Shown here one piece after another: positions 38,374-55,886 of a stretch of DNA of 64,000 bases. Position 1 is the stretch's first letter, and each line of letters begins with the position of its first letter. Below the pieces are notes generated by a model. It saw only the letters and a program-made list of their open reading frames with translations, had not been told where the DNA came from and did no database searches. This DNA is from an uncultured delta proteobacterium (lineage in GTDB: Bacteria > Desulfobacterota > Binatia > Binatales > Binataceae): positions 2,528,001 to 2,592,000 of the forward strand of contig CAWJET010000001.1 in NCBI GenBank assembly GCA_963842085.1. The letters are read 5' to 3'. A program made the translations under genes and the position numbers.

Positions 38374-41343
38374 ATGAGTGGATATCCCGCCGCTGAGAAT
38401 CCTCCCGCCGCCGGTCGCTTGCAATACCGATTTACCTCTGCGCACCAGCGGCTTCGCGAAACCGGTGCGCTGGATCGAATCATTTGTATCGGCTTGTTAA
38501 TCGGCACGATGGCGCTGGTCGGATGGGTGCGGCTGTTGCCCCACGCTCTAGGCGGCGTCGAGAGACCGGCCGCGGTCCTTGCGCGCGAAATGATCGCCGC
38601 CGAAGCCTACGGGCAACTGCCGGCTGATTCGCCGCAGCGGCGCGCCCCGATCGATCAAACGGTGCGCGCGTGGATGAGGGATCATCCCGCCGAATTCCAG
38701 AAATTGGATCACGAGATCGTCGGCCTGCTCGCTTCGGAATTTCGCTATATGGGTGACGACGGCCGCAAACACGTCTTCCTGGGTGACTATGACAGCTACC
38801 ACTGGCTGCGAATGGCCCGCAATTATCTGCAAGCGGGAACGACCTGCGATCGCATCGTAGACGGCATCTGCCGCGACACCTACACCAACGCACCGGTAGG
38901 CCGGATCAACGTCTATAACCGCTCGCTGCATATCGCTGCGATTATCACACTCAACCGCCTAATCACTCTTTTCAGGCCCGGGTTTCCGATTCCCGCCGGC
39001 TCCTTCCTGGTGCAGGCGTTGATCGGGATGCTCGGGGTCATTCCCGCCTTCGCGATAGGGCGCCGGGTCGCGGGTAATCTCGGCGGTTTCTGTGCCTCGA
39101 TCGTGCTGGGACTCAACCCGCTCTTCCTGGGACGGAGTCTTGGAAGCGACGACGACGTCTGGAATGTCGTCCTCCCGCTCTTCACGGTCTGGGCGCTGAT
39201 CGAGGCGTCGGCCGCGCCGTCATATCGCCGGCAGATCGCTTACGCGACTCTCGGCGCGGTGTTCGTCGGCCTGCACGCCGCTTCATGGAGCGGATGGCCG
39301 TTCGCCTATGGTGTCCTGATGATCGCGCTGCTCGCGAATCTGCTCTTCGAGTCGATCAAGCTGGCGCTGCGCAGAGCACGATCGGAAATTTCATCCGGAG
39401 CCGGAGTCCGACGCGCGGCTCTGGTCGTCGCGGTCTTTTGCTTTTCGGCGTGGATTACGACCTCGCTAGCAGGCGCCTCGTACTTTGCGACCGCACGACG
39501 CATTGCACGACCGGTAGCCGCCGTACTGCGGATTCATCCGGGCGGAGCGGACGTGGCTGCGGGCTCGCGTCCGAGTCCGCCCGGCGAGAGCGTGTGGCCG
39601 CGTAGTTTTTCCTTCGTCGAGGAGCTCAAGAAGGGCGACGCGACCCAGTTCGCGCTCTGGATGGGCGGGGAATGGGTGTTGTTCGCGGGCTGCCTTGGCC
39701 TGCTCCTGTTGGCCCTCCCGCACCGACGATGGAGATGGTGGGACTTCGCCTTGCTGATCGGCGCTGCCGGTCTTTATCGGTATGGGCTGACCGCCTCGCT
39801 CACAGGCGATTGGCAACTTCCGGCGCTGATCGCTGCGCCCATCGCGGTGGCTGTTCTGATCGACCTGACGCCGAATGCCCGACCTCCGCAAGAGGATCGA
39901 AGCGCGGTTTTGATTGTAACAGTCTGGTTCTGCGCAGCGCTGTATCTGAGCTTCTCGGCCGTGCGTTTCATCACGCTCCTCGCCGTGCCCTTTGCGATCG
40001 CGTTCGGTGCGATTCCCGGCCGCGCGCATCTATGGATCAGCAGGCTCATCCGTGAACGCCAGCCGCGCTACCCGGGGCCGGTGAGCGCTGCGGTCTTCGT
40101 GCTGCTAGCCGCGTGGACAATTGTGCCGGCCAAAGCCGGCTACCTGGAGGCGCGCAACTATATGCCCGACATCAACCAGGCCTGGTGGACGACGCTGGAG
40201 GACTTGTGCGAGCAAAGCCCGCCCAACGCTATCATCAACGCGGATTGGATCTATGGATACTGGATCAAGTACGCGGCGGAGCGGCGCGTCGTGGCGGACG
40301 GGGGCTCGCTCTCGACGCACATTCCGTACTGGCTCTCGCGCGCGCTGCTGGCGCCGAATGACAATCAGGCGGTAGGCGTGTTGCGGATGCTCGATTGCGG
40401 ATCGGACGCGATGCCGCAGCCGGAGGGCCAACTGGGAGCCTACGGCAAATTGATTGCGCAGGGCCTCGACCCGATAGCGGCTCAATCGATGGTGCTGGAG
40501 ATCGCGGGTCTGGACTTCGCCGCCGCCAAGGCTCGCCTGGCGCGCAGCGGGTTGGGCGAGGCGGCACAGGCCAGCGTGCTGGCTTCCACCCATTGCGACG
40601 CGCCGCCCGCGTACCTGATTCTTTCCACCAAAATGCTGCGCTTGGGGTGGTCTCAGCTCGGTAACTGGGATTGGGACTTCCGCCGCGCCTATGCTTACGA
40701 GAACGAGCGATCGATACCGGCAGCCGCCGCGGTTGATGATCTTGCCGCTCGCTTCGGGATGCAGCCGGCGGACGCGCGCACGCTCTTTCAACAGGTGCAC
40801 GGCCCGCATTCGGACGAAGACGCACAACGATTCATCGCATCGGCGCAAGCCCTCCGTGCGGGATGGATGCCATGCGGCGGTCTCACCCGCGGCGAGCTGG
40901 TTTGCACCAGTAACCTGCCGCTATCGCAGCGCCCAACCATAACCGGCCTCGTCTATCGGCCCACCGACACTACGCTGAAAATTGGTTTTCTGTCCGACCA
41001 CGGCGAGGTTCAGCCGCGGGACGAGACGCCGGCGATCGTACTGATCGCGGGCGACAAGGAGATCGTTGAGCATACAGTGGATTCGCCGACCGACCCGGAC
41101 GTGGCGGTGATGGTCGACCTGGTGCATTCTAGGGCCCTAGTCGGCCCGTCGAATCTGATCCGCTCAACCTTCACGAGGCTGGTGCTGCTCGACGGCGACT
41201 ACAGCCCGCTCTTCACCAAAGTCTATAAAGCCACAGTGATCGGAGAGACTGTAACCGCGTGGAAGATCAACTGGCCGGACCTTGAAAGATCGAGCTCGGG
41301 CCCGAACCCGAAACAACCGTCCACGCCTTCACCCGGCGCGTAA
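38374..41343 (+). CDS. STT3/AglB/PglB-family oligosaccharyltransferase
   Basis: GDYDSYHWLRMA (EL1 Asp); LGRSLGSDDD (DxD); SWSGW; FVEEL (TIxE/SVSE-like); RFITLLAVP; IINADWIYGYWIKY..RRVVADGG (WWDYG-position variant); many TM helices plus a soluble C-terminal domain. Confidence 0.88.
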   Translation: MSGYPAAENPPAAGRLQYRFTSAHQRLRETGALDRIICIGLLIGTMALVGWVRLLPHALGGVERPAAVLAREMIAAEAYGQLPADSPQRRAPIDQTVRAWMRDHPAEFQKLDHEIVGLLASEFRYMGDDGRKHVFLGDYDSYHWLRMARNYLQAGTTCDRIVDGICRDTYTNAPVGRINVYNRSLHIAAIITLNRLITLFRPGFPIPAGSFLVQALIGMLGVIPAFAIGRRVAGNLGGFCASIVLGLNPLFLGRSLGSDDDVWNVVLPLFTVWALIEASAAPSYRRQIAYATLGAVFVGLHAASWSGWPFAYGVLMIALLANLLFESIKLALRRARSEISSGAGVRRAALVVAVFCFSAWITTSLAGASYFATARRIARPVAAVLRIHPGGADVAAGSRPSPPGESVWPRSFSFVEELKKGDATQFALWMGGEWVLFAGCLGLLLLALPHRRWRWWDFALLIGAAGLYRYGLTASLTGDWQLPALIAAPIAVAVLIDLTPNARPPQEDRSAVLIVTVWFCAALYLSFSAVRFITLLAVPFAIAFGAIPGRAHLWISRLIRERQPRYPGPVSAAVFVLLAAWTIVPAKAGYLEARNYMPDINQAWWTTLEDLCEQSPPNAIINADWIYGYWIKYAAERRVVADGGSLSTHIPYWLSRALLAPNDNQAVGVLRMLDCGSDAMPQPEGQLGAYGKLIAQGLDPIAAQSMVLEIAGLDFAAAKARLARSGLGEAAQASVLASTHCDAPPAYLILSTKMLRLGWSQLGNWDWDFRRAYAYENERSIPAAAAVDDLAARFGMQPADARTLFQQVHGPHSDEDAQRFIASAQALRAGWMPCGGLTRGELVCTSNLPLSQRPTITGLVYRPTDTTLKIGFLSDHGEVQPRDETPAIVLIAGDKEIVEHTVDSPTDPDVAVMVDLVHSRALVGPSNLIRSTFTRLVLLDGDYSPLFTKVYKATVIGETVTAWKINWPDLERSSSGPNPKQPSTPSPGA

Positions 41344-41380
41344 GCCGCGCACGCGAAATAGCCGCGCGCCGGCATTGCGG

Positions 41381-42676
41381 TCAAGCGCCGTTCAGCAATC
41401 CCTCACAGCAGGCGATCACGGCCACAGCCGCACCCGGGGCGGCGAAGTTTCGCATGCGATTCGATGCGGCCATCCAGACCTCGCGGTCACGCAACACCGA
41501 CGTGATGTGCGCAGCGAGCTTTTCCGGCTCCCAGGCCTCTTCAGTCACCCAACGGGTTCCGGTCCGGGCGGAAAATGCGCGCGCGGTGTAAAGCTGGTGA
41601 TTGTGAGCCACGGAAGCCATCGGAACTATAAGTGCTGGAAGCCGAAGGACCGCAAGTTCGGCAAGCGTGTTCGCTCCCGCGCACGAGATCGCGAAGTCCG
41701 CCCATCGGTAGGCTTCAGCCATGTCCTCGATATAGCGCGCGGTGCGCGCCTTCACGCCGCAGGCAGCGTACTGGGCGACCACCCCCTCTGGCCCGTCAAG
41801 GCCGGCCCGATACCCGGTCTGATGCAGCACCTCCAGCGCCGGGACGCTTTGCTGAAGGAGTTCGAGCAGCCGAGGCACCCGCTCGTTGAGAAAAGCCGAG
41901 CCCAGCGAGCCGCCGGTGACCAGAATCCGCGCGGGACGACCGCCGCCCGGAGCGATGCGCACCTCGAGCGCCAGCTTTATGATCTCGCCGCGAATGGGCG
42001 TGCCGGTCACCACTGTGCGCTCAGGCGGAAACCACTTGCCTGCCTCCTCGAACGTGACGCAGATCCGGTGGACCAGCCGGCCGAGGACCCGGTTGGTGAG
42101 CCCCGGAACTGGATTGGACTCGTGAACCACCGTGCGCAGGCCCAGCGAGCGCGCTGCCAGCAGGGTACCCGCGCAGGCGTAACCGCCGAAGCCGATCGCA
42201 AGCTCGATCCGTTCGGCCCTCAAGATCGCCCGCGCGCGAACGAAGCCGGAGCCGAGATTCGCCAGAGCGCGCGCCTTTCCCGAGATTCGCTCACGCAGCA
42301 TCGGAGAGGCCGCGATCGGTGCGAACCGGTATCCGCTCCGGCTGGCGGCCTGCGACTCGAGACTGCATTCGCGTCCGAAGATCAGGATCTGCGCGCGATC
42401 GCTCGCCGCGGCGTAGTTCTCGGCGAGCGCAAGTCCCGGGTAGGTGTGGCCGGCAGTGCCACCGACCGTGATTGCGATACGCCGAGGGCGGGCGACTCCG
42501 GACGAAGCGTGGTTGCGGTCGGCTCCGTTCGACGCGTGGGACACGCCGTAGCGGTGCGGCGAGTTCTCTGCGAACGACACCGCGCCGGACTGCCGCGCAG
42601 TCAGGGCACCACGCTGATCCTGAACGGAAACGTTACTCACGAAAGAAGACCGCGCCACCACGCGATCCGCGCGCAC
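41381..42676 (-). CDS. MurG-like GT28 UDP-GlcNAc transferase outside a dcw cluster (start probably downstream of 42676)
   Basis: GGTAGH, GFGGY, HESN.VPG.TN, TGTPIR, TGGSLGS, AGANTLAE and HQ..A motifs. Confidence 0.88.
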   Translation of the reverse strand: MRADRVVARSSFVSNVSVQDQRGALTARQSGAVSFAENSPHRYGVSHASNGADRNHASSGVARPRRIAITVGGTAGHTYPGLALAENYAAASDRAQILIFGRECSLESQAASRSGYRFAPIAASPMLRERISGKARALANLGSGFVRARAILRAERIELAIGFGGYACAGTLLAARSLGLRTVVHESNPVPGLTNRVLGRLVHRICVTFEEAGKWFPPERTVVTGTPIRGEIIKLALEVRIAPGGGRPARILVTGGSLGSAFLNERVPRLLELLQQSVPALEVLHQTGYRAGLDGPEGVVAQYAACGVKARTARYIEDMAEAYRWADFAISCAGANTLAELAVLRLPALIVPMASVAHNHQLYTARAFSARTGTRWVTEEAWEPEKLAAHITSVLRDREVWMAASNRMRNFAAPGAAVAVIACCEGLLNGA

Positions 42677-42822
42677 TCATCGCCGCACCCCATCTCCAAA
42701 ATCTCTCCCCCTCGCCGCCCACAATCCAAATCGAATCAAGGTTTTCTTTAGCAATAGAAACATATTGGAGCAATGAAACGGATTAGTGTTTTTCCCCAGA
42801 AGTTTCGATAGTCGTTAGGTTT

Positions 42823-43749
42823 CTAGCGCAATCGGTGCGGGCTGTTCCCGGGACCATACAGATAGCCCATCAGCTCGCCGGCGGCATGGAAGTGCAGAAT
42901 CACGACGATTAGCGGAAAGCTCTTTAAGGCCTGCCACCGATAAGCCGGCTTGCGGACGACCATCCGTGCAGCGATCCGCAGGCTGTCTTTAGCGACTCGC
43001 AGAGGCATCAAGAGGGCGCGCAAAACGTGGTATATGCACTGTGCGCGACCTAACTTGGCTTGGGCAAAGCCGGCACTGGTGCGACCGTCGTGATAGTGGA
43101 TTAGACAATTACCTAGCGCACCAAGCGGCAGCACGTGGACGACCACGAGGCGATCGTCGCTAATCAGGATTCGGCCAGAACCACGCAGGTCCCTCGTGTA
43201 ATCGCTCTCTACGACACCGTGGGGAGGCAGATCCTCGGGCAACGCCCAGCGCTTATACGAAATGTTAGCCTGACCGGCGATGGTGGGGCGCTCTCCGTTT
43301 GGTATAGGGGGCAGAAAGGCACCGCCGGAGATGAAGAAACTCGCTCGATCCCACAGACTGTCGACGGCGCCATTGTCAACCACGCCACCTATCACGGCCG
43401 CCTGAGGATTCTCCCGATGCGCGCGCAGCACCTGCTCGCACCAATCTGGCGCCACCCGGCAATGGTCTTCAGTGACGGCAACAACCTCGCCGCGGGCTTC
43501 GGCGAGACCGATAGCGCGTAATTGAAACACGGTGTCGCCGGGCCGGCGCAGCCATCGAACGCCTGCGTAACCGTGATTCTCGCACAAGCCCTGGCCGTGT
43601 CCATCGACCACGACTAGCTCCGCTCCCAGAGCCCGCGTCTGGGCATATACCGAATCCAAGACACCGCGCATCTCCAGCCATGGCTGGCTGGTGGCTATGA
43701 CTACAGACAGAGGAGGAACACACTCGGCGAGCGACCTATCATCCTGCAA
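42823..43749 (-). CDS. GT2/GT-A fold glycosyltransferase
   Basis: PLSVVIAT, ELVVVD, LRAIGL..ARGEVVAVTEDH, VIGG.V, ANISYKR. Confidence 0.8.
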   Translation of the reverse strand: MQDDRSLAECVPPLSVVIATSQPWLEMRGVLDSVYAQTRALGAELVVVDGHGQGLCENHGYAGVRWLRRPGDTVFQLRAIGLAEARGEVVAVTEDHCRVAPDWCEQVLRAHRENPQAAVIGGVVDNGAVDSLWDRASFFISGGAFLPPIPNGERPTIAGQANISYKRWALPEDLPPHGVVESDYTRDLRGSGRILISDDRLVVVHVLPLGALGNCLIHYHDGRTSAGFAQAKLGRAQCIYHVLRALLMPLRVAKDSLRIAARMVVRKPAYRWQALKSFPLIVVILHFHAAGELMGYLYGPGNSPHRLR

Positions 43750-44017
43750 AGACCGCTCCTCTCACGGTTCGATTATTTGTCGGGGCTTCCGTTTGAATCT
43801 CCGATTCCAACTGGCCGTATAGACCGAACGGCCTTCCTCTGCAAGGCGTGCAGCCGGGTTTTAGTCCACTCTGTTTCCAGCGGCACCGCATAGGGCCGGT
43901 TTCGCGGCAGGCGTGCAAACAACGCGCGGTTGACACAACCGCCTGCGGACTCTATCAACGTACAGTCAGCGAAACAGGCGTAGTTTTTTTCCCGCCTGAA
44001 GTCGCCGCCCCATCCGT

Positions 44018-45256
44018 ATGCGAGTAGTGATTGTCGTCCTCGGGGATTTCGGCCAAAGTCCCCGCATGCAGTATCACGCTCTGGCGTTAGCCGATTCGGG
44101 CAGAGATGTAGAGGTTATTGCATATACCGGCTCTGCGCCGTTTCGGGCGGTCAGTGAAAATCCGCGGATCACGATTCATCTGACGTACGCTCCGATCGCT
44201 GCCACGCGCCATTTGCCGGGGTTACTGTTCGTGGCCTGGCAATTCATGCGGCTCTGCGGTCAGGGTCTGGGCCTGCTGTGGAACCTTCTGCTGACCGTCG
44301 GCAAGCCTGACGTAGTACTGGTGCAGAATCCCCCAGCCGTCCCAACCTTGCTGATCGCGCTGGTCGCCGCGCGCCTTCGATCGGCGCGGCTCGTAATCGA
44401 CTGGCATAACTTCAGCCATGCGATGCTCGCGCTCAGGCTGGGATCGGATCACTATGCGGTGCGAATGTTGCGATGGCACGAGCGCGCGGTCGGGCGCCGC
44501 GCCGACGCGCATCTGTGCGTCTCGCGCGCGATGCAGTCCGAGCTTCGCGCGCACTGGCAGATTCCCGGCGCTGTCGTCCTGTACGATCGTCCCGCTGAAA
44601 TGTTCACGCCGACGCCGCCGGAGGCGCAGCCCGCGGTGCTCCGCCGCGTCCTGGCGGGCGTCGCTTCCGCCCAGGACGACGGCCGGCGGCCCGCGATTGT
44701 CGTATGCCCTACGAGCTGGACTTCGGATGAAGACATTTCGATTCTGATTCGGGCCGCGGCGCGCTGCGATGAAATGGTCCGAACCGGCAAGAGCTTCGCT
44801 GAACTGCTGATTCTTATCACCGGCCGTGGCGCGCTGCGCGATCAACACGAGGAGGAGATCCGGAAGTTGACGCTGCGAAGAATCCATCTGCACACGCTGT
44901 GGCTTGCGGCCGAAGATTACGCGCTATTGCTGGGCTGCGCCGACCTCGGCGTCTCGTGTCACAGGTCGGCCTCGGGAATCGACCTGCCGATGAAGATCGC
45001 GGATCTGTTCGGCGCGGGAGTGCCGGTCTGCGCGCTGGACTACGGTCCCGTTCTCGCCGAACAGGTGCGCCACGGCGCCAATGGCCTCCTGTTCGCCGAC
45101 GCCGAACAGCTAGCCACGCAGCTCTACGAATTGTTCGAGGGCTTTCCCGTCCATACGCCGCTGCTGGATCGCCTGCGTGACCAGGTCCGCGGCCAGCCCC
45201 GGATTTCCTGGCGCGACGGATGGAATACCGAGGCAGCTCATGTCTTTGCGGATTGA
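44018..45256 (+). CDS. ALG1-like chitobiosyl-PP-lipid beta-1,4-mannosyltransferase (GT33)
   Basis: VLGDFGQSPRMQYHA, QNPPAVP, IDWHN, LYDRP, TSWTSDED, ITGRG and WLAAEDYALLLGCADLGVSCH.SASGIDLPMKIADLFG match the eukaryotic ALG1 signature blocks. Confidence 0.93.
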   Translation: MRVVIVVLGDFGQSPRMQYHALALADSGRDVEVIAYTGSAPFRAVSENPRITIHLTYAPIAATRHLPGLLFVAWQFMRLCGQGLGLLWNLLLTVGKPDVVLVQNPPAVPTLLIALVAARLRSARLVIDWHNFSHAMLALRLGSDHYAVRMLRWHERAVGRRADAHLCVSRAMQSELRAHWQIPGAVVLYDRPAEMFTPTPPEAQPAVLRRVLAGVASAQDDGRRPAIVVCPTSWTSDEDISILIRAAARCDEMVRTGKSFAELLILITGRGALRDQHEEEIRKLTLRRIHLHTLWLAAEDYALLLGCADLGVSCHRSASGIDLPMKIADLFGAGVPVCALDYGPVLAEQVRHGANGLLFADAEQLATQLYELFEGFPVHTPLLDRLRDQVRGQPRISWRDGWNTEAAHVFAD

Positions 45257-45274
45257 CCGTCGCGACGGACCGTC

Positions 45275-46489: not shown

Positions 46490-48335
46490 CCGCGCATCAC
46501 ACGGTCGGAGCTCCCGCTTCCCAGCCATCCGAGTTTTGGCCAGCTGCTTCGCGATGCTTCCCGGCGCAATCCGATGGCGCTGGGCGATACTCGCGCCGAT
46601 TGCATTCCTGCGCGGCACGCTCGAGGCCATAGCGGCCGGGGCGGTGTTCGCGCTGATCAAGATCATCAGCGATCCGCCCGCGATCGCTCACCTGCCAGTC
46701 GTCTCAAGGGTCGCATCGATGCTGCCCTGGCGCGGCGCCCCGGCCCAGATCGTCGCGCTGACCGGACTGGTCGCGCTTTTTTACCTGTTCAAGAACCTGT
46801 TTGCCCTCGGCATGGAATACTTCACCCACAAGGTCGTGGGTGAATCGGTGTTGGCGCTCAAAAGTACGATGATGAGGGGCTATCTCGCGATGCCCTACCC
46901 GTTTTATCTGCGCCGCAACTCCGCGGATCTGATCTGGAACGTCGACGCCGCGGTGAACCGGGTCTGCGAAGAAGGAATGTTGCCGGCGGTCGCCGTGGTG
47001 TCGGAAGTTCTGGCCGCTGCGAGCATCGCCGCGGTGCTGGTGTACACCGCGCCAAAGATTACCCTGATCGCCGGATGCCTGCTGGGCGGCGGACTCGCCT
47101 TGCTGCTGCGACTCACGCGCGCGATGGCGCATCGCTATGGATCCGAGAGGGACCGGCTGTCACGCGGCATTCTGCGCGATCTCCAGCAAGCCTTCGGCGG
47201 AGTCAAGGAGATCAAGGTGCTCGGCCGCGAACAGTTTTTTGTCGGGGCGCTCGAGCAGAAACTGCGCGGCATCCTCAAACTCGGATACCTCGCCAAAACC
47301 CTCGAGACCAGCGCGCCGTTGTTCACTGAGACCCTGTTCGTGGGCGGGGCGCTGGTCGTGATCGCGCTGCTGAGCGCAAGGGGCGCGGTCCGCAGCGAAG
47401 GGCTGCCGCTGCTGGCGCTGTTCTCCTATGCCGCGTTCCGGATCGTTCCGTCCGTCAACCGGATCGGGTGGCGGATCAATCAGATCCGCGGCGTGGCGGT
47501 ATCGGCCAGCAATCTCTACGACGACTATCTGCTCATAGCCGGTGTCGAGCGCGGCAACGCCGACGTTGATGACGGTCATGCAGTGATGCTCCACAGCGCA
47601 ATCGAATTCGAGCGCGTTTCGTTTACGTACCCGGAGGCCGGGCAATCGGCGCTGCATGAGATCTCGCTTACGATTCGCCGCGGCGAATCAATCGGCGTCG
47701 TGGGACCTACTGGCGCGGGCAAGAGCACGTTCGCCGACCTCCTGGTGGGATTGCTCACTCCCTCCTCGGGCCTCGTTCTGATCGACGGCCGAGACCTGTC
47801 TGATCGGCGGTTGGCCTGGAAGCATCGGATCGGCTACGTGCCGCAATCAATCTTTCTCCTCGACGACAGCCTGACCCGCAACATTGCGTTTGGCTTTGCC
47901 GACGCCGAGATCAAGCTTGACCGCGTGCGCGCCGTGGTCCGAATGGTGCAACTCGATCAGTTGGTCGCCACGCTGCCGGCGGGCCTCGACACCGTGGTCG
48001 GTGAGCGCGGCGTTCGCTTCTCCGGCGGCGAACGGCAACGCGTCGGGATCGCCCGCGCGCTCTATCACGATCCCGACCTGCTGGTATTCGATGAGGCCAC
48101 CTCCGCCCTCGACCAGGCCACCGAGGCCGACGTGACGAACGCGATTGAGACGCTGCAAGGCCGCAAGACAATGCTGGTCATCGCCCATCGCCTGGCTACG
48201 GTAAAGCATTGCGATCGGCTGGTCTTCATCGCCGACGGACGGATCCGCGCGTGCGGCAGCTACGATGAATTGATGCGCGACGTCGACGAATTCCGCCGAA
48301 TGGCGGCGGCAGGCGAAACGCGCTCGGCAGGCTGA
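46482..48335 (+). CDS. ABC exporter (TMD+NBD), PglK-like lipid-linked oligosaccharide flippase
   Basis: TM domain with YLAMPYPFYLRRNS, GGVKEIK and AAFRIVPS.NRI; GPTGAGKS Walker A; FSGGERQR signature; LVFDEATSALD; TTG start overlapping the ALG2 stop (alternative ATG at 46554). Confidence 0.88.
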   Translation: MNSRASHGRSSRFPAIRVLASCFAMLPGAIRWRWAILAPIAFLRGTLEAIAAGAVFALIKIISDPPAIAHLPVVSRVASMLPWRGAPAQIVALTGLVALFYLFKNLFALGMEYFTHKVVGESVLALKSTMMRGYLAMPYPFYLRRNSADLIWNVDAAVNRVCEEGMLPAVAVVSEVLAAASIAAVLVYTAPKITLIAGCLLGGGLALLLRLTRAMAHRYGSERDRLSRGILRDLQQAFGGVKEIKVLGREQFFVGALEQKLRGILKLGYLAKTLETSAPLFTETLFVGGALVVIALLSARGAVRSEGLPLLALFSYAAFRIVPSVNRIGWRINQIRGVAVSASNLYDDYLLIAGVERGNADVDDGHAVMLHSAIEFERVSFTYPEAGQSALHEISLTIRRGESIGVVGPTGAGKSTFADLLVGLLTPSSGLVLIDGRDLSDRRLAWKHRIGYVPQSIFLLDDSLTRNIAFGFADAEIKLDRVRAVVRMVQLDQLVATLPAGLDTVVGERGVRFSGGERQRVGIARALYHDPDLLVFDEATSALDQATEADVTNAIETLQGRKTMLVIAHRLATVKHCDRLVFIADGRIRACGSYDELMRDVDEFRRMAAAGETRSAG

Positions 48336-48347
48336 GCAAGCGAAGCG

Positions 48348-49192
48348 ATGGATTTTGGATCTTCGTTAAGTTGGCGCCGTTACTCGCGCGGACTCGGTTC
48401 GAACGCGAAGACCTGGCCCGCTGGCCCGACGCATTCGCTGAGCGCCAGCGTTGTCCCAGCCGAGGTTGGCTCCCACGTCGATACATACGCCGCCACTGAG
48501 ATCCAACAAGCGGAACAGCGCGAGCAACTCGGGCTCCCAGGTTCGGATCAGGAATAGGGTGCTACCGATCGCGACGTCGCGCAAGTCAATCCGGAGGCGA
48601 AAATGATCGGCGGCGATAACCGCCCGCGGGTAAATACGCCGGCGGAAAGGGGTGATCCAATGTCGCCGAGCGATCGGCGCTGGGAGAGCGAAAAGAGACC
48701 ACCTGGCTGTGGCTTAATTCACACAACTGGGGAGACAACCGGATCGTGTCGGAACGCAAAGCTGGCGAACAATATGAGTCAGTAGCAGTCAAAGTGGGCG
48801 ACGAGATCCTGTCGGCGCTGCCGGCCGGCGCGATCAAGCTGGTGAAGGTCGACGCGCAGGGCTACGACCTGTTCGTGGTGAAAGGTTTACGCGACTCGCT
48901 GATGCGCAGTCCCGACGCGGTCCTGGCCGTGGAAGTCGCGCCAGGGCACTTACGTGAAGCGGGCACCTGCCCGGGCGCGTTCGTCGCATACCTGGTCGAG
49001 CAGGGTTTCCGCGGCTGGGAGCTACACCCTCATCGCGCATTTCCGGTCCTTGCACCCCAAGACTACGAACTCAGCGACGACGGCGGGGAAACGAACCTGG
49101 TGTTGTCTCGCCGGCCAGAAGCGCTCGCCCGCGCGATTGGCAGGATGTTTCCCGGCTTGACCGGATCTTCAGCTCCGCGCATCGAGCGCTAG
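48348..49192 (+). pseudogene. FkbM-family methyltransferase broken by an internal inversion (48374-48680) and indels
   Basis: The minus strand carries WEPE...CIDVGANLG...VGPAGQVFAFEP; the plus strand carries ALG...NWGDNRI...KLVKVDAQGYD..VVKG. Confidence 0.78.
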
Positions 49193-50118
49193 CCCCGCTC
49201 TGCGGCCTTCGGCGCAATGCGGTTTGGCTCCGGCCTTGACAGTCGCTGCCTGGCCAGGCCGAGGTACAGTTTCGCCAACAGCCGCATTCGCTGCGCGAAG
49301 GGAACAATCGGGACATCGCCCAGGATCTCATCCCGCAAGTCCCACCAATCCGCCCAAAGATCATGGAATATGGGATGGGCCGTCGGGAGCAAACGGTAAG
49401 CGTCCTCGGGCCGCCAAAACCAGGGCTTACCCAGGTGGCTGAAGTGAACCAGCATCGCCATCCGCCGAGCGCGCTCGGCATCTCCGAAGTAAAACGGACC
49501 GGTGGCGGAGCACCACTCCGAATTCAAACAGCCATACTCGTCGGCGAGGAAATGAATCTCATCGTCGAACTCCAGATTGATGATATTCATGTCATACAGG
49601 CGCTTCTCAAAGGCGGAAGCGAAGTGCCGTTGAACCCGATCCCAATTGCCCATTGATGGGGTTACGACCAGCAACAGGCTGGTCGCCTTAAACTGTCGCG
49701 TCCAGTAGGCGCGCGGAGCCGCGATGGTCTGCGCAAAAGGCAAGGTGAAAAGATGGTCGAGATTCTGGAGCGGAAGTGAGTCCGAGTCGATGAAGACCAC
49801 CCGCTCGTACTCCACGAGCTGAAAAATCCGCAGCTTGGTAAGACAATCGCGGTAGTACTTGCCGCGGGTGAACCGCAGCGGTTCCACCTCTCTTAGAATG
49901 AAGTTCGCGTGGCGGGCCCTGGTTACCATGGCCGGCGACACGCCGTGGTAGATGAAGACGAACCCGATATCGCGGCCGGCGCCAGTTCTGCGCAGCGCCG
50001 TCGCGGCAATGATCGCGCCTGCGGCGTACGCGTCGTCGGTCGCATAAAAGACGTATGCAAACCGGTTCACGGCCGCTCGTGATCCGCCTAATTCCTCACT
50101 CGTGCTCAAGGTCTGCAC
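49189..50118 (-). CDS. GT8 glycosyltransferase, fungal GNT1/glycogenin-like
   Basis: FAYVFYATDDAY, TKLRIFQLVEYERVVFIDSD (DxD), NLDHLF, AAPRAYW, YDMNIIN, VHFS..GKPW. Confidence 0.85.
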   Translation of the reverse strand: MQTLSTSEELGGSRAAVNRFAYVFYATDDAYAAGAIIAATALRRTGAGRDIGFVFIYHGVSPAMVTRARHANFILREVEPLRFTRGKYYRDCLTKLRIFQLVEYERVVFIDSDSLPLQNLDHLFTLPFAQTIAAPRAYWTRQFKATSLLLVVTPSMGNWDRVQRHFASAFEKRLYDMNIINLEFDDEIHFLADEYGCLNSEWCSATGPFYFGDAERARRMAMLVHFSHLGKPWFWRPEDAYRLLPTAHPIFHDLWADWWDLRDEILGDVPIVPFAQRMRLLAKLYLGLARQRLSRPEPNRIAPKAAERG

Positions 50119-51323
50119 TCTGGCGGCTCTTCTCCGCTCTTCGGCGACGACGCCAATCTGATCGCGGGCGCGTTCCGAACCGGCGACACCTGGAGGTAAT
50201 CACACACTGCCTGGAGACGACTCACGAAGCGCTCCGAAGTGAACAAGTTGCGGCGCGACGCGATATGATTGCGCAGGCTCGCCTGACAGTCCGGGTCGCG
50301 CAGCGCGCGCAGAATTTTGTGCACCGCGTCCTCGCGCGAGTAGTAGATCAGACGTTCGTCGTCGCCGACGATCTCGACCTGCCCGCCGCTGTTCGGAACG
50401 AAGGTGATACATCCAGCGCTGACGAGTTCGGCGACCGCCATCCCGAAGGGCTCTTCGTCCATCGCGTGGATGCCGTAGCGATGACTCGCAATCAACTCGA
50501 CGAGCTCCGGTCGCGATATGTTTTCGTGCAGATGGACCCAGGGCGCGTTGGCCTGAACCAGGCGCCGGATCGAGTCAAGGTAGACGGGGTCCCATCGATT
50601 GCCGACCACATGGAGATGCACCTGGGGACCGGCCAGCCGCACCGCGGAGAGAATCTCGATCATCAGTTCGATCCGTTTCTCACCGGAGATCCGCCCGATG
50701 CATACGAAGCCTTCCTTGCGCCGATCCCACGGCACTTCGGGAAACTTGCCAGTGGCAGGAGGATAAATCACCACCGGCTCGATCCCGAATACCCCGCGGA
50801 TAGCGCGGGCCGTGAACTCCGAGTTGGCCAGTGTAAGATTGCTCTTCATCCTGTCGATCGAAAACCCGGTCAGGCGCTCAGCGATCGCTTCATAAGCGCG
50901 CACGGCGGCTGAAGAGTGATACCAGCTCAGCGATACGGGATCTTTCGACAACGCTTCCGGGAAGTGGATGTACTGAATTCCGCGCGGCCCCAGATCAGCC
51001 TCGTTAGCGGCTGTAATCACCGCGTCGAAGCGCCCGGCGCAGCGCCGTGCCTCCATAAATACATAGAGATCTCGGAGCCCGACAGCCGGCGTTGGGAGCA
51101 TCTTCGCCAGCCGATCCACCCATGGCTTTACAGTAGTGGCTTCGATTTCCGAGGGTTGAAGCTCGGTCCCGAAAGACCAGTTCAGGGCCGCGAAATCCAC
51201 CGGTTCCCAGGTGAGCAGGTTGAGCCGATAGTCACGCTTGAGAGCCTCGAGGATCCAGGCGGCGAGACCGTCGGCACCGCTTACCGATCCAATTCTGCGC
51301 TGTGCGAACAGGATACGCTTCAT
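50106..51323 (-). CDS. ALG11-like GT4 glycosyltransferase (copy 1)
   Basis: SGADGLAAW, QYIHFP, LANSEFT, VIYPP, GRISGEK, GIHAMDEEPFGMAVAELVSAG, PNSGG. Confidence 0.75.
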   Translation of the reverse strand: MKRILFAQRRIGSVSGADGLAAWILEALKRDYRLNLLTWEPVDFAALNWSFGTELQPSEIEATTVKPWVDRLAKMLPTPAVGLRDLYVFMEARRCAGRFDAVITAANEADLGPRGIQYIHFPEALSKDPVSLSWYHSSAAVRAYEAIAERLTGFSIDRMKSNLTLANSEFTARAIRGVFGIEPVVIYPPATGKFPEVPWDRRKEGFVCIGRISGEKRIELMIEILSAVRLAGPQVHLHVVGNRWDPVYLDSIRRLVQANAPWVHLHENISRPELVELIASHRYGIHAMDEEPFGMAVAELVSAGCITFVPNSGGQVEIVGDDERLIYYSREDAVHKILRALRDPDCQASLRNHIASRRNLFTSERFVSRLQAVCDYLQVSPVRNAPAIRLASSPKSGEEPPECRP

Positions 51324-53095
51324 CGCGACCTAACCCGGTCCGCGCCCAGCCGCCGCTCGCGGAGATAGTCGCCGACCACTTCCCGAATCCGGCTCACGAA
51401 ACGCTCGGCCGCAAACAAGTTGCGGCGCGACGCGATGTGACTGCGCAGGCTCGCCTGACATTCGCTGTCACCTAGCGCGCGCAGAATCTTGTTCACCGCG
51501 TCCTGTCGCGAGGTGTAAGTCAGCCGTTCATCGTTGCCGACAATCTCGACCTGCCCGCCGCTGTTCGGAATGAAGGTGATGCATCCGGCGCTGACGAGTT
51601 CGGCGACCGCCATGCCGAAAGGCTCCTCGTTCATCGCATGGATGCCGTAGCGATGACTCGCGATCAGCTCGACGAGCTCCGGGCGCGATATTCCTTCGTG
51701 CAGATGGACCCAGGACGCGTGGTCCTGAACCAGCCGCCGGATCGAAGCCACGTAGCCGGGGGATTCTCCCTTTCCCACCACGTGGAGATGCACCGCTAGG
51801 CCGGCAGCCCGGACCGCGGACAAAATCTCGATCATCAGCTCAATCTGTTTGCAGGGTATGAGGCGCCCGACGCAAACGAATCCGTCCTCGCGCCGCTCCC
51901 AGGGCACGTCCGGAAATTCGCCAATCGCCGGCGGATACACCGTCATGGTCTCGACGCCGAACAATTCCCGGACGCTGCGTCCTGTAAAGTCCGAGTTCAC
52001 CAGCGTGAGATTTTTCCGCATCCGCTCCCATGAGACCCCGGTCAGGCGGTCGATCGTAGCGCGATACGTCCGTACTGCCGGCGCCAGCCACCAGTATGCC
52101 TCCGCTCTCGACGCGTTACGTCCGTTTTTCGGGGAGTGAATATACTGGATGCCGCGGAAGCCGACGTCAGCCTCGTTGTGGCCCGATAGAACCACATCGA
52201 AGCGGTCTGCGATCCGGCGGCTCCGCCTCCACAGATACTGATTCTCGATCCTGGTCAGAGATTTCTGCGCGACGGCACGGACCAGCGGGTTCATGACCAG
52301 GAATTCGGCGTCTGAAGCGCAAAGATCGGTCGCAAAAAAACGGTTCAATCCCTCGAGATCGGGAGGAGTCCAGGTCAACACAGTCAGCCGATAGTCGCGC
52401 TTCAGCGACTCGAGGATCCACGCAAGCAGGCCTTCTCCTCCGCCGGGCGGTTCGAGTTTGGATGCGACGATCAAAATGCGCTTCATCGGCGCCTGAACTG
52501 CTTCGGCCGGGAGCGCACTTCCGTCGAGCCTGGCTTGCGCGTGGTGGTCCTTCACGACTTCCAGCTCGTTGTGCAACTCCTCGGCTGGAAAGAACGCCGA
52601 GAAGCGGCGTTCGTATCTTGGCGGATTCCAATTGGCCAATCTGGCACCGACTCTCTCCAGGATGCGCGTCCGTGTTGGCGGAAAAACGAGCCACGTGTTG
52701 CGCCGCCTGAACCGCGGCTCGCCAAACGCGTTTGGGTGCTCGCCGGTGAAAAACTGGAAGCTGTAGTAGCCGAAGAAATGGCAATGCGTCGGGTCGGTGA
52801 ACGCATTGGGCGAGGAAAAGTGCGGCGTAACTATTTTGACTGTCGCGCCATGACGGCAGACGCGATGGATTTCCTCCATTGTGGCGACCGTGTCGTGAGG
52901 ATGTTCGATCACATGAGTCGCGATCACCGCTCCGAACCGATTGTCGGGAAACGGCCAGGGACGCTGATTGAGATCGTGCACGACATCCGCACCTACGTCC
53001 GCGCGCACGTCGACGTTGATCGCCCCCGCAATCAGGTTATGCCCGCAGCCGAGGTGCAGGACATCTTTCTTTCTTCTGGTCGTGGCTGTCCTCCA
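51320..53095 (-). CDS. SAM methyltransferase domain in frame with ALG11-like GT4 (copy 2; GT domain from ATG 52486); 5' end abuts an IS110 remnant
   Basis: VLHLGCG..INVD..ADVVHDL..PWPF..HVIEH..DPTH methyltransferase domain, then GGGEGLLAW, YIHSP, NSDFT, VYPP and GIHAMNEEPFGMAVAELVSAG. Confidence 0.75.
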   Translation of the reverse strand, partial: WRTATTRRKKDVLHLGCGHNLIAGAINVDVRADVGADVVHDLNQRPWPFPDNRFGAVIATHVIEHPHDTVATMEEIHRVCRHGATVKIVTPHFSSPNAFTDPTHCHFFGYYSFQFFTGEHPNAFGEPRFRRRNTWLVFPPTRTRILERVGARLANWNPPRYERRFSAFFPAEELHNELEVVKDHHAQARLDGSALPAEAVQAPMKRILIVASKLEPPGGGEGLLAWILESLKRDYRLTVLTWTPPDLEGLNRFFATDLCASDAEFLVMNPLVRAVAQKSLTRIENQYLWRRSRRIADRFDVVLSGHNEADVGFRGIQYIHSPKNGRNASRAEAYWWLAPAVRTYRATIDRLTGVSWERMRKNLTLVNSDFTGRSVRELFGVETMTVYPPAIGEFPDVPWERREDGFVCVGRLIPCKQIELMIEILSAVRAAGLAVHLHVVGKGESPGYVASIRRLVQDHASWVHLHEGISRPELVELIASHRYGIHAMNEEPFGMAVAELVSAGCITFIPNSGGQVEIVGNDERLTYTSRQDAVNKILRALGDSECQASLRSHIASRRNLFAAERFVSRIREVVGDYLRERRLGADRVRSR

Positions 53096-53104
53096 TGGGG
53101 ACGC

Positions 53105-53675: not shown

Positions 53676-54091
53676 AGGCGACGAAGCCGCCGTTTTCGAT
53701 TACCTCCGCCGGCACGCCTTCGACCTCTTTCCTGGCGAGTATGGGTTTCACGGCTTCACCCCGGCAAACTCGCGCAGCGCCGACGATGGCACGTGAGTTG
53801 CCCGCCAACGTGTAGGGAGGTGATGGTTATGCCAGTTGGTTTGCTACTTCTCCTTGTGCTGATTACATTTGCGCTGTATTTCGATCAAAACGGGAGCGTT
53901 CGGGAGGAGAAATTGGGCCAGCCATCTGCCGCCTTTCGGCACAGGCACAAAAATAATGCCACCTTTTGGCACAGGTATAGAAGTAATCAGAATTCCTCAG
54001 ATTCGTCACGCTAGGTTTTCCCGAGGGCGGGCCGAGTTCAGCCTTTCACGGGGACAAGTTCCAGGAGGAAGGCCCAGCAAGAGCGTCCGAG

Positions 54092-54562: not shown

Positions 54563-54574
54563 CGGATGATTCGC

Positions 54575-55860: not shown

Positions 55861-55886
55861 TCTCGTCGGCGTCGGTGCGATGGAGA

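What the first reader, a model, noticed from the sequence alone, without database searches (positions are those of the whole stretch)
38374..53095. Bacterial gene cluster encoding a eukaryote-type (ALG) N-glycosylation pathway with its own oligosaccharyltransferase
Seen: within 15 kb there is an STT3-family OST, an extra MurG-like GT28, a protein with the ALG1 (GT33) signature blocks, one with the ALG2 blocks, two ALG11-like GT4s, a PglK-like ABC exporter co-transcribed with ALG1-ALG2, a GT2, a GNT1-like GT8 and methyltransferases. Established: on the cytosolic ER face, ALG13/14 (MurG homologues), ALG1, ALG2 and ALG11 build Man5GlcNAc2-PP-dolichol, which is flipped, extended and transferred by STT3. 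Characterised bacterial systems such as Campylobacter pgl use unrelated bacillosamine/GalNAc glycans. Inference: this bacterium may build a chitobiose-trimannosyl core on a polyprenol carrier, flip it with an ABC transporter and transfer it to periplasmic proteins. This bears on the origin of the eukaryotic pathway and on glycoengineering. The initiating GlcNAc-1-P transferase (ALG7/WecA-like) is not in the window. I cannot check whether similar loci have been reported.
Basis: partly seen in the sequence, partly recalled or inferred. Interest (0 to 1): 0.95.

Follow-up and report, generated by a model that had tools for sequence, protein, structure and literature searches.

The report
Bacterial ALG-type N-glycosylation gene cluster

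Summary
The genes are real and at the stated coordinates. The 412-aa GT is a true ALG1 (GT33) relative: 40-44% identical to six named eukaryotic ALG1s (E 8e-81 to 3e-91). The next GT carries both published ALG2 signature motifs, each found only once in the 4.9-Mb genome. The GT28 is a second MurG paralogue. The 989-aa protein is an STT3/AglB/PglB-fold enzyme.

In 201 Binatia genomes, 25 have both ALG1-like and STT3, 2 have ALG1-like only, 1 has STT3 only, and 173 have neither. In 16 of the 25 the two genes lie within 10 kb. In 16 related loci a WecA-like initiating transferase sits directly upstream of STT3.

Two points fail. The "ALG11-like" label has no support. This genome's only STT3 reads DWIYG where the family has WWDYG, so its own transfer step is uncertain.

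A 2025 preprint already shows that bacterial ALG1 (including a Binatia one) and ALG2 are active. It never mentions an OST, operon or gene cluster, and six other literature searches found no report of the cluster.

Verdict: a new variant of bacterial N-glycosylation, high interest, function inferred and not shown.

The parts
38374..41343 (+). STT3/AglB/PglB-family oligosaccharyltransferase, 989 aa. It is the only STT3 in the genome. The WWDYG position reads DWIYG (codons at 40243-40257).
   Evidence: Pfam PF02516, 2.8e-26. The family profile hits only OSTs in the PDB. AlphaFold model pLDDT 79.6, pTM 0.80. Foldseek ranks 1-17 are all OST catalytic subunits, with PglB best at 8.1e-14. Motif. The same letters occur in contigs of 4 runs. 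Single copy.
41381..42676 (-). Second MurG-like GT28, proposed to add the second GlcNAc (the ALG13/14 role). The conserved part starts near residue 64, so the true start may be later.
   Evidence: PF03033 and PF04101. TIGR01133 at 230 bits, below the 250.25 cut-off, while the housekeeping murG scores 277 bits on contig C2. All 3 PDB hits are MurG, best 4.3e-43. 30% identical to the organism's own MurG. Next to STT3 in 27 of 64 bacterial loci.
42823..43749 (-). GT2 glycosyltransferase, a probable tailoring enzyme.
   Evidence: PF00535, 1.5e-10. Conserved in L002 and L005 (84-85%) and L013 (53%).
44018..45256 (+). ALG1-family (GT33) beta-1,4-mannosyltransferase homologue, 412 aa.
   Evidence: JGI names of relatives read 'beta-1,4-mannosyltransferase'. 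40-44% identity, E 8.4e-81 to 2.7e-91, to six named eukaryotic proteins. BLASTP against Globisporangium Beta-1,4-mannosyltransferase: 39% over 447 columns, 3e-104. Tree. Found in 28 of 64 STT3 loci.
45275..46489 (+). ALG2-like GT4, proposed alpha-1,3/1,6-mannosyltransferase, 404 aa, starting 18 nt after ALG1-like.
   Evidence: GVGGAER at residues 15-21 and EHFGYVPLE at 305-313 match the ALG2 signatures of the preprint. Each strict motif occurs once in the six-frame genome, against 66 generic E.FG....E matches. The nearest ESM Atlas clusters are named ALG2 (a lead only).
46554..48335 (+). ABC exporter (MsbA/PglK type), proposed flippase. The open frame begins at 46272 and the first ATG is at 46554.
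   Evidence: PF00005 and PF00664. MsbA 266 bits and PglK 243 bits, both below cut-off. PglK 5c73 is a full-length hit at 7.9e-60. A homologous ABC gene occurs in 24 of 64 loci, usually right after ALG1-like or ALG2-like.
48366..49192 (.). Two short ORFs on opposite strands (48366-48584 - and 48746-49192 +). They look like remnants of a methyltransferase, a resemblance that rests on recall only.
   Evidence: No Pfam family for the 148-aa ORF; the 72-aa ORF was not scanned. Translations. Only parts are conserved in L002, L003 and L005.
49189..50118 (-). GT8 glycosyltransferase, a probable tailoring enzyme.
   Evidence: PF01501, 1.8e-8. Found in only one other locus, L010 at 51%.
50106..51323 (-). 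GT4 of a family associated with Binatia-type clusters. Function unknown, and not shown to be ALG11-like.
   Evidence: PF00534, 1.8e-15. No ALG11_N match at E<=10. Generic names. This family occurs in 14 of 64 loci.
51320..53200 (-). Fusion of a SAM-methyltransferase domain (about residues 41-160) with a GT4 paralogous to the previous gene.
   Evidence: PF08241, PF13489 and PF00534. 61% identical to the neighbouring GT4 over 379 residues. Fused forms of 591-602 aa occur in relatives.

Best explanation
This is a chromosomal locus of a soil Binatia bacterium for making a lipid-linked oligosaccharide and transferring it en bloc.

Inferred order of steps:
1. A WecA-like enzyme puts HexNAc-1-P (probably GlcNAc-1-P) on a polyprenyl phosphate. 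It is encoded elsewhere in this genome but lies directly upstream of STT3 in 16 related loci.
2. The extra MurG paralogue adds the second GlcNAc.
3. The ALG1-family enzyme adds beta-1,4-mannose.
4. [quoted passage not shown]
5. The GT2, the GT8, the two paralogous GT4s and the fused methyltransferase decorate the glycan.
6. The ABC exporter flips the glycan to the periplasmic face.
7. The single-subunit STT3-family enzyme transfers it to protein asparagines.

Shown here: the family memberships, the gene order, its conservation, and the co-occurrence of the genes. Shown by others for homologues, not for these proteins: ALG1 and ALG2 activity. Inferred: the glycan structure, the carrier lipid, the flipping, and the acceptor. 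In this genome the last step may be altered or weakened, because WWDYG reads DWIYG.
For: ALG1 membership:
- 996 library proteins match at E<=1e-30.
- Six named eukaryotic proteins match at 40-44% identity, E 8.4e-81 to 2.7e-91.
- BLASTP against an oomycete 'Beta-1,4-mannosyltransferase' gives 39% over 447 columns, E 3e-104.
- In a FastTree of 137 rows, a branch with 100 SH-like support separates 61 rows from 76 rows. The 61 rows hold all 8 rows known to be eukaryotic. The 76 rows hold the window protein and three rows that match bacterial MAG loci.

ALG2: both signature motifs are present and each is unique in the genome.

Published activity (preprint sections read): a Binatia ALG1 homologue complements yeast alg1 and makes Man-GlcNAc2-PP-phytanyl, and bacterial ALG2 homologues make Man3GlcNAc2.

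OST: Pfam, a profile search against the PDB and a fold search all return OSTs.

Linkage:
- STT3, GT28, ALG1-like, ALG2-like and ABC all lie together in 9 other loci.
- WecA-like, STT3, GT28 and ALG1-like lie together in 8 loci.
- Of 201 Binatia genomes, 25 have both ALG1-like and STT3, 2 have ALG1-like only, 1 has STT3 only, and 173 have neither. One of the 25, G329, is unpublished.
- In 16 of the 25 the two genes are within 10 kb.
- The extra GT28 is present in 2 of 3 cluster-bearing genomes checked and in 0 of 2 cluster-lacking genomes of the same genus.

Supply: two GDP-mannose-pyrophosphorylase-like genes and two WecA-like genes occur elsewhere in the genome.
Against: - The window's STT3 has DWIYG where 51 of 62 family motif instances read WWDYG. 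Its five closest relatives keep the Asp. It is the only STT3 in the genome. By recall, the WWD residues bind the +2 Ser/Thr of the sequon in PglB.
- STT3 dN/dS against close relatives is 0.33-0.44, higher than ALG1-like at 0.18-0.28.
- No initiating transferase lies in the window.
- The extra GT28 is missing from one cluster-bearing genome, G160.
- 13 of the 28 STT3 loci with full flanks have none of the partner genes within 10 kb.
- ALG2 kinship to eukaryotic ALG2 rests on motifs and an embedding search. No alignment with named eukaryotic sequences was made.
- The identity between the window's ALG1-like protein and the preprint's BiALG1 is unknown, because the accession is in supplements I could not open.
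- No glycan, glycoprotein or transcript has been observed.
Confidence: 0.7

Rival explanations
1. The glycan is assembled as proposed, but in this genome the STT3-like enzyme is inactive or has changed acceptor. The product would then end up elsewhere, for example as a free or lipid-bound glycan or on a non-canonical site, or the pathway is being lost in this lineage.
For: - DWIYG replaces WWDYG in the only STT3 of the genome, with the same letters in contigs of 4 runs.
- The first Trp is already variable in the five closest relatives: D, N, Q, W and N.
- dN/dS is 0.33-0.44.
- There are fragmentary ORFs between the ABC and GT8 genes.
- The cluster was found in only 3 of the 10 genus members searched.
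Against: - The 989-codon frame is intact and keeps every column that is invariant in the 18-sequence family alignment, including the acidic loop residues.
- dN/dS is well below 1.
- All partner genes are intact.
Confidence: 0.2
2. This is an ordinary bacterial exopolysaccharide or LPS-type cluster. Its GT4 enzymes only superficially resemble ALG enzymes, and the STT3-like protein is an unrelated GT-C enzyme.
For: - Pfam and NCBIfam give only generic GT4/GT2/GT8 names, with weak EpsE/EpsD/WcaI-type matches.
- The two further GT4s have no ALG signature.
- The two WecA-like genes elsewhere in the genome sit in polysaccharide-type surroundings.
Against: - The 412-aa GT is 40-44% identical to eukaryotic ALG1 over its whole length.
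- The ALG2 motifs are unique in the genome.
- The GT-C protein matches OSTs ahead of ArnT, PMT or DPY19.
- No Wzy, Wzx, Wzz or Wza-type gene is among the families that recur around STT3 in 6 or more loci.
Confidence: 0.05
3. The eukaryote-like genes are contamination, or a recent transfer from a eukaryote into one assembly.
For: Several of the nearest ESM Atlas clusters are mostly eukaryotic.
Against: - The locus lies inside a 3.24-Mb contig of a genome with 1.07% contamination.
- The cluster GC equals the genome GC.
- The same gene order occurs in many independent MAGs, down to 35-45% STT3 identity.
- The window's side of the ALG1 tree has 76 representatives at the 50%-identity level and is separated from the eukaryote-bearing side by a fully supported branch.
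Confidence: 0.02

Closest known systems
Cytosolic half of the eukaryotic dolichol pathway (ALG7, ALG13/14, ALG1, ALG2, ALG11) plus STT3
   Same: - ALG1-family and ALG2-signature enzymes are encoded next to each other.
- A GT28-fold enzyme is in the position of ALG13/14.
- An STT3-family transferase is present.
- The implied order of sugars is GlcNAc2 followed by Man1-3.
   Different: - The GT28 is a one-piece MurG paralogue, not ALG13/14.
- The initiating enzyme in related loci is WecA-like.
- No ALG11 could be identified.
- An ABC exporter stands where eukaryotes need a flippase.
- The ALG1-like protein starts directly at the conserved N-terminal motif, without the N-terminal extension seen in the aligned eukaryotic protein.
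- The OST is a single 989-aa protein with its own C-terminal domain.
- No luminal ALG3/9/12/6/8/10 equivalents were looked for.
Bacterial ALG1 and ALG2 homologues of Xu et al., bioRxiv 10.1101/2025.10.15.682550 (abstract and sections 5, 7, 8, 9, 10 read)
   Same: Same protein families and one of the same bacterial classes (Binatia). That work shows beta-1,4-mannosyltransferase activity and yeast alg1 complementation for a Binatia homologue, and ALG2 activity for Gammaproteobacteria, Polyangia and Deltaproteobacteria homologues.
   Different: - The preprint treats the enzymes singly. Its main text has 0 occurrences of STT3, operon or gene cluster and 0 of 'physiological'.
- It does not report the link to an OST, an extra MurG, a WecA-like enzyme or an ABC exporter.
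- Whether its BiALG1 is close to the window protein is unknown, because the accession is in supplements that are closed.
Campylobacter pgl locus (PglB, PglK, PglC/A/J/H/I)
   Same: A bacterial cluster with cytoplasmic GTs, an ABC flippase and a single-subunit STT3-family OST. PglB is the best structural match of the model, and PglK is a full-length match of the ABC protein.
   Different: - There are no bacillosamine genes and no PglC-type initiator in the window.
- The GTs are of ALG1/ALG2 type.
- The OST is 989 aa and only distantly related: the profile E-value to PglB is 8e-7.
- Both the NCBIfam PglK and PglJ cut-offs are missed by a wide margin.
Archaeal AglB systems (e.g. DPANN and Methanosarcinales loci fetched here; Sulfolobus Agl24, from the abstract seen)
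   Same: The nearest relatives of the bacterial STT3 family in this scan are archaeal proteins of the same length, at 24-37% identity over nearly the whole length.
   Different: The archaeal loci carry a GT2 (8 of 12) and a geranylgeranyl-reductase-like gene (7 of 12). They carry none of GT28, ALG1-like, ALG2-like or ABC (0 of 12 each).
Engineered E. coli pathway making Man3GlcNAc2 with yeast ALG13/14/1/2 and PglB (Valderrama-Rincon et al. 2012; recalled, not read here)
   Same: The same logic: host WecA, a chitobiose-forming enzyme, ALG1, ALG2, a flippase and a single-subunit OST.
   Different: That system is synthetic. This locus would be a natural counterpart with bacterial versions of every step.

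Membership tests
STT3/AglB/PglB oligosaccharyltransferases (GT66) | STT3 N-terminal membrane domain above Pfam's cut-off | tested here: met
   PF02516 at 93.4 bits against a cut-off of 24.5.
STT3/AglB/PglB oligosaccharyltransferases (GT66) | OST fold: a GT-C membrane part plus a C-terminal soluble domain | tested here: met
   Model pLDDT 79.6, pTM 0.80. Foldseek ranks 1-17 are OST catalytic subunits, with PglB TM-score 0.66 normalised to the target. ArnT, DPY19 and PMT rank lower.
STT3/AglB/PglB oligosaccharyltransferases (GT66) | WWDYG motif | tested here: not met
   The window protein reads DWIYG, confirmed in contigs of 4 runs. The family as a whole meets the feature: 51 of 62 motif instances in 78 loci read WWDYG.
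STT3/AglB/PglB oligosaccharyltransferases (GT66) | Conserved acidic residues in the first and second external loops | tested here: inconclusive
   D140, D259 and D261 are invariant and E417 is conserved in the 18-sequence alignment. Their equivalence to the catalytic residues of PglB rests on recall and was not checked by structural superposition.
STT3/AglB/PglB oligosaccharyltransferases (GT66) | Transfer of a lipid-linked glycan to Asn | not testable with these tools
   Needs an enzyme assay or glycoproteomics.
ALG1 (GT33) beta-1,4-mannosyltransferase | Full-length sequence kinship with eukaryotic ALG1 | tested here: met
   40-44% identity, E 8.4e-81 to 2.7e-91, to six named eukaryotic proteins. 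39% over 447 columns to UniRef 'Beta-1,4-mannosyltransferase'. JGI names agree.
ALG1 (GT33) beta-1,4-mannosyltransferase | Placement with ALG1 sequences in a tree, not among generic GT4s | tested here: met
   All 137 rows of the tree are hits at E<=1e-75. The window protein lies in a 76-row group opposite a 61-row group that holds all 8 rows known to be eukaryotic (support 100, FastTree). Only 8 rows of the eukaryote-bearing side and 3 rows of the window's side could be given an organism.
ALG1 (GT33) beta-1,4-mannosyltransferase | Beta-1,4-mannose transfer to GlcNAc2-PP-lipid | not testable with these tools
   Shown for a Binatia homologue in the preprint, not for this protein.
ALG2 alpha-1,3/1,6-mannosyltransferase | N-terminal G-rich loop G-I-G-G-A-E-R | tested here: met
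   GVGGAER at residues 15-21. It is the only match to G[IV]GGAER in the six-frame genome. Motif definition from the preprint.
ALG2 alpha-1,3/1,6-mannosyltransferase | EX7E motif E-H-F-G-I-V-P-L-E with the conserved Val | tested here: met
   EHFGYVPLE at residues 305-313. It is the only strict match in the genome, against 66 generic E.FG....E matches.
ALG2 alpha-1,3/1,6-mannosyltransferase | Alignment-based closeness to named eukaryotic ALG2 | not tested
   Only an embedding search points there: Atlas clusters named ALG2 at scores 0.99-1.00.
ALG11 alpha-1,2-mannosyltransferase | ALG11 N-terminal domain (Pfam ALG11_N) | tested here: not met
   No match for either GT4 even at E<=10. Names of 120 listed relatives are generic.
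MurG (equivalog TIGR01133) | Score above the curated cut-off, and being the cell-wall copy | tested here: not met
   230 bits against a cut-off of 250.25. A 277-bit copy lies about 2.7 kb from an MraY-type PF00953 gene (the weakest match to the WecA-like F369 protein) on contig C2. It is a GT28 member, and the best PDB hits are MurG.
PglK (NCBIfam NF050066) | Score above the curated cut-off | tested here: not met
   243 bits against a cut-off of 1000. MsbA scores slightly higher at 266 bits. It works like an ABC lipid exporter, but membership in PglK is not supported.

The most novel reading that the evidence does not exclude
Binatia and some other soil bacteria natively N-glycosylate periplasmic or surface proteins with a glycan that has the eukaryotic GlcNAc2Man3 core. 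The core is built on a polyprenyl diphosphate by a WecA-like enzyme, a MurG paralogue, ALG1 and ALG2, flipped by an ABC exporter, and transferred by an AglB-like single-subunit OST. Such a bacterial cluster would be the physiological home, and possibly the source, of the ALG1-ALG2 mannosylation module that eukaryotes use. That module was thought in 2016 to have no prokaryotic counterpart for ALG1.
Probability: 0.4. Interest if true: 0.92.

Novelty: new variant of a known kind. Interest (0 to 1): 0.8.

Why it matters
Lombard (2016; section read) could find no prokaryotic relative of ALG1 and called it a possible eukaryotic innovation. A 2025 preprint then found active bacterial ALG1 and ALG2, but it does not say what these enzymes do in bacteria.

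The linkage shown here gives them a physiological setting: a complete-looking N-glycosylation pathway, encoded together with an STT3-family transferase, an extra MurG, a WecA-like enzyme and an ABC exporter, and gained or lost as a unit across Binatia genomes. This makes three questions testable:
- whether bacteria make a eukaryote-type N-glycan core;
- whether the ALG1-ALG2 pair came to eukaryotes as a module from such a cluster;
- whether a compact, all-bacterial gene set can be used to make Man3GlcNAc2 glycoproteins in laboratory bacteria.

Tried and rejected
Dead ends and slips:
- PDB sequence searches gave nothing for the ALG1-like protein (0 hits at E<=1) and only generic GT4s for the ALG2-like protein.
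- My first synteny table used an ABC query cut in the wrong frame, so its ABC column is unreliable. It was replaced by clustering all ORFs. That clustering missed the window's own GT28, because a longer antisense ORF (41282-42751 +, no Pfam family) shadowed it. The two methods also disagree for a few loci: tblastn finds GT28 and ALG1-like in L036, the clustering does not.
- The promoter/terminator scan gave counts near the shuffles (6 against 4.1 and 16 against 12.5) and says nothing.
- No RNA holder was listed for the locus, so expression could not be examined.
- A phylum-level sample was dominated by other classes and was uninformative (3 of 151).
It was corrected and sent again.

Considered and rejected:
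- A GC-based 'foreign island' reading. The cluster is at 62.7% against 61.5% for the genome, and 30% of same-size genome windows are at least as GC-rich.
- The ALG11 label for the two paralogous GT4s.
- Contamination (see rival explanations).

Not done:
- A rooted ALG1 tree, an ALG2/ALG11 phylogeny with eukaryotic sequences, and an OST tree including PglB and eukaryotic STT3.
- Complex prediction. I make no binding claim.

Literature searches for a report of the cluster. Only the 2025 preprint and the 2024 Kifer preprint (passages seen: ALG1 has significant matches only in bacteria) bear on it. Subscription journals and supplements were not searchable.

Full report
**What is there.** Between 38374 and 53200 the window holds nine intact genes in four transcription blocks.
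- Block 1: a 989-aa STT3-family protein (+).
- Block 2: a GT28 and a GT2 (both -).
- Block 3, after a 268-nt divergent gap: a 412-aa GT, a 404-aa GT4 starting 18 nt later, and an ABC exporter whose frame overlaps the end of the GT4 (all +).
- Block 4, after 0.85 kb with only short unannotatable ORFs: a GT8, a 405-aa GT4, and a 626-aa methyltransferase-GT4 fusion (all -, with overlapping stop and start codons).

The 489-aa ORF on the + strand opposite the GT28 has no family and is a shadow frame. The flanks hold unrelated small genes (YjbR, HTH proteins) and a tRNA-Thr at 55887-55962.

**Organism and assembly.** Record titles of the closest loci name Candidatus Binatus, Binataceae and Binatia, with older labels reading 'delta proteobacterium'. 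The genome is 4.93 Mb in 2 contigs, 100% complete with 1.07% contamination. The cluster GC is 62.7% against 61.5% for the genome. Contigs of 7 runs from 2 studies of soil and sediment metagenomes hold at least 70% of the sampled words of the locus. Chimerism and contamination are therefore excluded.

**ALG1.**
- Pfam gives the 412-aa protein only generic GT4-clan domains, and the PDB gives nothing.
- JGI annotates its relatives as beta-1,4-mannosyltransferase.
- An exhaustive HMMER search finds 996 proteins at E<=1e-30. I looked up ten of the listed hits that looked eukaryote-like in length. Six are eukaryotic: an oomycete protein named Beta-1,4-mannosyltransferase, three fungi, a green alga and a holozoan. 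They match at 40-44% identity with E 8.4e-81 to 2.7e-91. One is a JGI metagenome protein with the same name, and three have no name.
- A pairwise BLASTP with the oomycete protein covers residues 4-410 at 39% identity, E 3e-104.
- I built a FastTree from 137 rows: the window protein plus 136 of the 150 listed hits, dropping 14 that were shorter than 370 aa or longer than 560 aa. One branch with support 100 separates 61 rows from 76 rows. The 61 rows contain all eight rows I could show to be eukaryotic. The 76 rows contain the window protein and three rows that match bacterial MAG loci at 73-99.8%. Most rows remain unlabelled and the tree is unrooted, so it shows two sister groups and no direction of transfer.

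**ALG2.** The 404-aa GT4 has GVGGAER at residues 15-21 and EHFGYVPLE at residues 305-313. The preprint defines G-I-G-G-A-E-R and E-H-F-G-I-V-P-L-E, including the Val, as the ALG2 signatures. It reports them in eukaryotic and bacterial homologues but not in archaeal ones. In a six-frame scan of the whole genome each strict pattern occurs exactly once, both in this gene, against 66 generic E.FG....E matches. The ESM Atlas lists clusters named ALG2 (Streptophyta, Arthropoda) as nearest; I treat that as a lead. I could not align the protein with named eukaryotic ALG2.

**ALG11 is not supported.** The 405-aa GT4 and the GT4 part of the 626-aa fusion are 61% identical tandem paralogues. Neither matches Pfam ALG11_N even at E<=10. 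The named ones among their 120 listed relatives carry only generic glycosyltransferase names. The single PDB hit is weak. They belong to a family that recurs in 14 of 64 related loci, so they are probably part of the pathway, but with unknown linkage.

**GT28.** It is a MurG-type single polypeptide: all three PDB hits are MurG, the best at 4.3e-43. It scores 230 bits, under the murG cut-off. A 277-bit copy lies on the other contig about 2.7 kb from an MraY-type gene. The two copies are 30% identical. Of three other cluster-bearing genomes checked, two have the extra copy beside STT3 and one (G160) does not. Two cluster-lacking genomes of the same genus have only the housekeeping copy.

**OST.**
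- Pfam STT3 is clear.
- A profile of 18 family members hits 17 PDB sequences, all of them AglB, PglB or STT3, at E 5.6e-8 to 5.6e-3.
- The AlphaFold model built with that alignment has pLDDT 79.6 and pTM 0.80. Its 17 best Foldseek matches are OST catalytic subunits, led by PglB.
- The family comprises about 900-1000-aa proteins (158 hits). It has conserved cysteines and a family-specific C-terminal region.
- In a tree of 74 proteins, the 59 bacterial rows plus the window protein separate with support 100 from 14 archaeal rows labelled Woesearchaeota, Nanoarchaeota or Methanosarcinales. That sample was drawn with patterns from this family and is not an unbiased view of OST diversity.

**The weak point.** Where the family has WWDYGYW, the window reads DWIYGYW.
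- Across 78 loci, 51 of 62 motif instances read WWDYG.
- The five closest relatives read DWDYG, NWDYG, QWDYG, WWDYG and NWDYG. The first Trp is therefore already free in this clade, but only the window has also lost the Asp.
- The letters are the same in contigs of four runs. The same samples also hold relatives with the WWD form.
- This is the only STT3 in the genome.
- dN/dS against close relatives is 0.33-0.44 for STT3 and 0.18-0.28 for ALG1-like. STT3 is thus constrained, but less so than ALG1-like.
- By recall (Lizak et al. 2011, not read here), the WWD residues hold the +2 Ser/Thr of the sequon in PglB. The acceptor rule or the activity may therefore differ here.

**Linkage.** I clustered all ORFs of the 78 loci and the window. 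This gives 64 loci with the bacterial type of STT3 and 12 with the archaeal type; 2 were lost to the ORF filter.
- Around the bacterial type: GT28 in 27 loci, ALG1-like in 28, ABC in 24, ALG2-like in 16, the further GT4 in 14, and a 359-369-aa PF00953 protein in 16. Many of these contigs are short.
- The PF00953 protein lies directly upstream of STT3. It is WecA-like: Pfam 5.9e-43, and TIGR02380 at 107 bits, below the cut-off.
- Nine loci have STT3, GT28, ALG1-like, ALG2-like and ABC together. Eight have WecA-like, STT3, GT28 and ALG1-like together.
- Of the 28 loci with at least 8 kb on both sides, 15 have at least one of GT28, ALG1-like or ALG2-like, and 13 have none. At least one of those 13 (L014) is a second copy in a genome that has the cluster on the same contig (L002).
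- None of these partners occurs in the 12 archaeal loci, which instead have a GT2 and a geranylgeranyl-reductase-like gene.

**Co-occurrence at genome level.** The same sample of 201 Binatia genomes was searched twice. ALG1-like is in 27 genomes and STT3 in 26. Both are present in 25, ALG1-like only in 2, STT3 only in 1, and neither in 173. In 16 of the 25 the two genes are within 10 kb. One of the 25 is an unpublished genome (G329). Related genomes are not independent, but the pattern spans 18 genera, and within the window's own genus only 3 of 10 genomes have the pair.

**Missing first step and sugar supply.** The genome has three PF00953 genes, one of which is MraY. The best match to the cluster-type WecA-like protein lies at C1:1623975 (38% identity, 3.7e-50), about 0.94 Mb away. 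Two GDP-mannose-pyrophosphorylase-like genes exist.

**What is already known.**
- Xu et al. (bioRxiv 2025; abstract and sections 5, 7, 8, 9 and 10 read) found 204 bacterial ALG1 homologues and essentially none in archaea. They showed that homologues from Gammaproteobacteria, Polyangia and Binatia complement yeast alg1 and make Man-GlcNAc2-PP-phytanyl, which human ALG2 extends. They also showed that bacterial ALG2 homologues make Man3GlcNAc2. Their main text does not mention STT3, operons or gene clusters, nor a physiological role.
- Kifer et al. (bioRxiv 2024; passages read) note that ALG1 has significant matches only in bacteria.
- Lombard (2016; section 11 read) could not find prokaryotic relatives of ALG1.
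- Seven full-text searches found no report of the cluster itself. Supplements and subscription journals were out of reach.

**Verdict.** The pathway is a mosaic: a bacterial WecA-like initiator and MurG paralogue, ALG1/ALG2-family mannosyltransferases shared with eukaryotes, an ABC flippase candidate, and an OST whose nearest relatives found here are archaeal. It is not a copy of the eukaryotic pathway. The ALG11 claim should be dropped. The function of the OST in this particular genome is in doubt. The enzyme-level novelty is taken by the 2025 preprint. The cluster, its co-inheritance with an OST and the implied native bacterial N-glycan with a eukaryote-type core appear unreported in what I could search.

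Noticed in passing
window 48366-48584 (-) and 48746-49192 (+): Two short ORFs on opposite strands between the ABC and GT8 genes carry what I recall as the N-terminal (..DVGAN.G..) and C-terminal (..K.D..G.....) motifs of FkbM-type methyltransferases. The longer one has no Pfam family; the other was not scanned. Only parts are conserved in L002, L003 and L005. This looks like a broken, partly inverted gene.
   Followed up: partly
other Binatia genomes, e.g. G214:C4:139512-142109, G278:C3:5591-8191, G166:C347:3256-6036: the genome search reports one in-frame TGA (sometimes TAG or TAA) inside the STT3 match in about a dozen genomes. These could be assembly frameshifts, alignment joins or real breaks. 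I did not cut them out to look.
   Followed up: no
L024:2938-8669 and L029:7188-12832: Two STT3-family genes stand in tandem in these loci, and each copy groups with the matching copy of the other genome. This indicates an older duplication, with both copies reading WWDYG.
   Followed up: partly
L055, L059, L061, L064, L067, L070, L071, L076, L077, L078 (archaeal loci): The archaeal relatives of this STT3 are flanked by a small GT2 (8 of 12 loci) and a geranylgeranyl-reductase-like gene (7 of 12 loci). That is a different, dolichol-type setting.
   Followed up: partly
window 40251-40283, contigs of runs X1, X2, X4: Short contigs from the same soil samples match only this stretch and continue upstream with letters that encode ..VNAWWD... 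Relatives with the canonical motif therefore live alongside the DWIYG population.
   Followed up: partly
window 50106-53200: The 405-aa GT4 and the GT4 half of the 626-aa fusion are 61% identical tandem paralogues. Relatives occur both fused to the methyltransferase (591-602 aa) and unfused.
   Followed up: partly
window 1-38000 and 53200-64000: The rest of the window is at 58.0% GC, below the genome's 61.5%. It holds several very long ORFs (24-3917, 8331-11000, 15478-18396) that I did not examine.
   Followed up: no
G000:C1:1623975-1640069: The best own-genome match to the cluster-type WecA-like protein lies about 15 kb from one of the two GDP-mannose-pyrophosphorylase-like genes, with a GT4 just upstream. 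This may be a second glycan locus that could supply the first step.
   Followed up: partly
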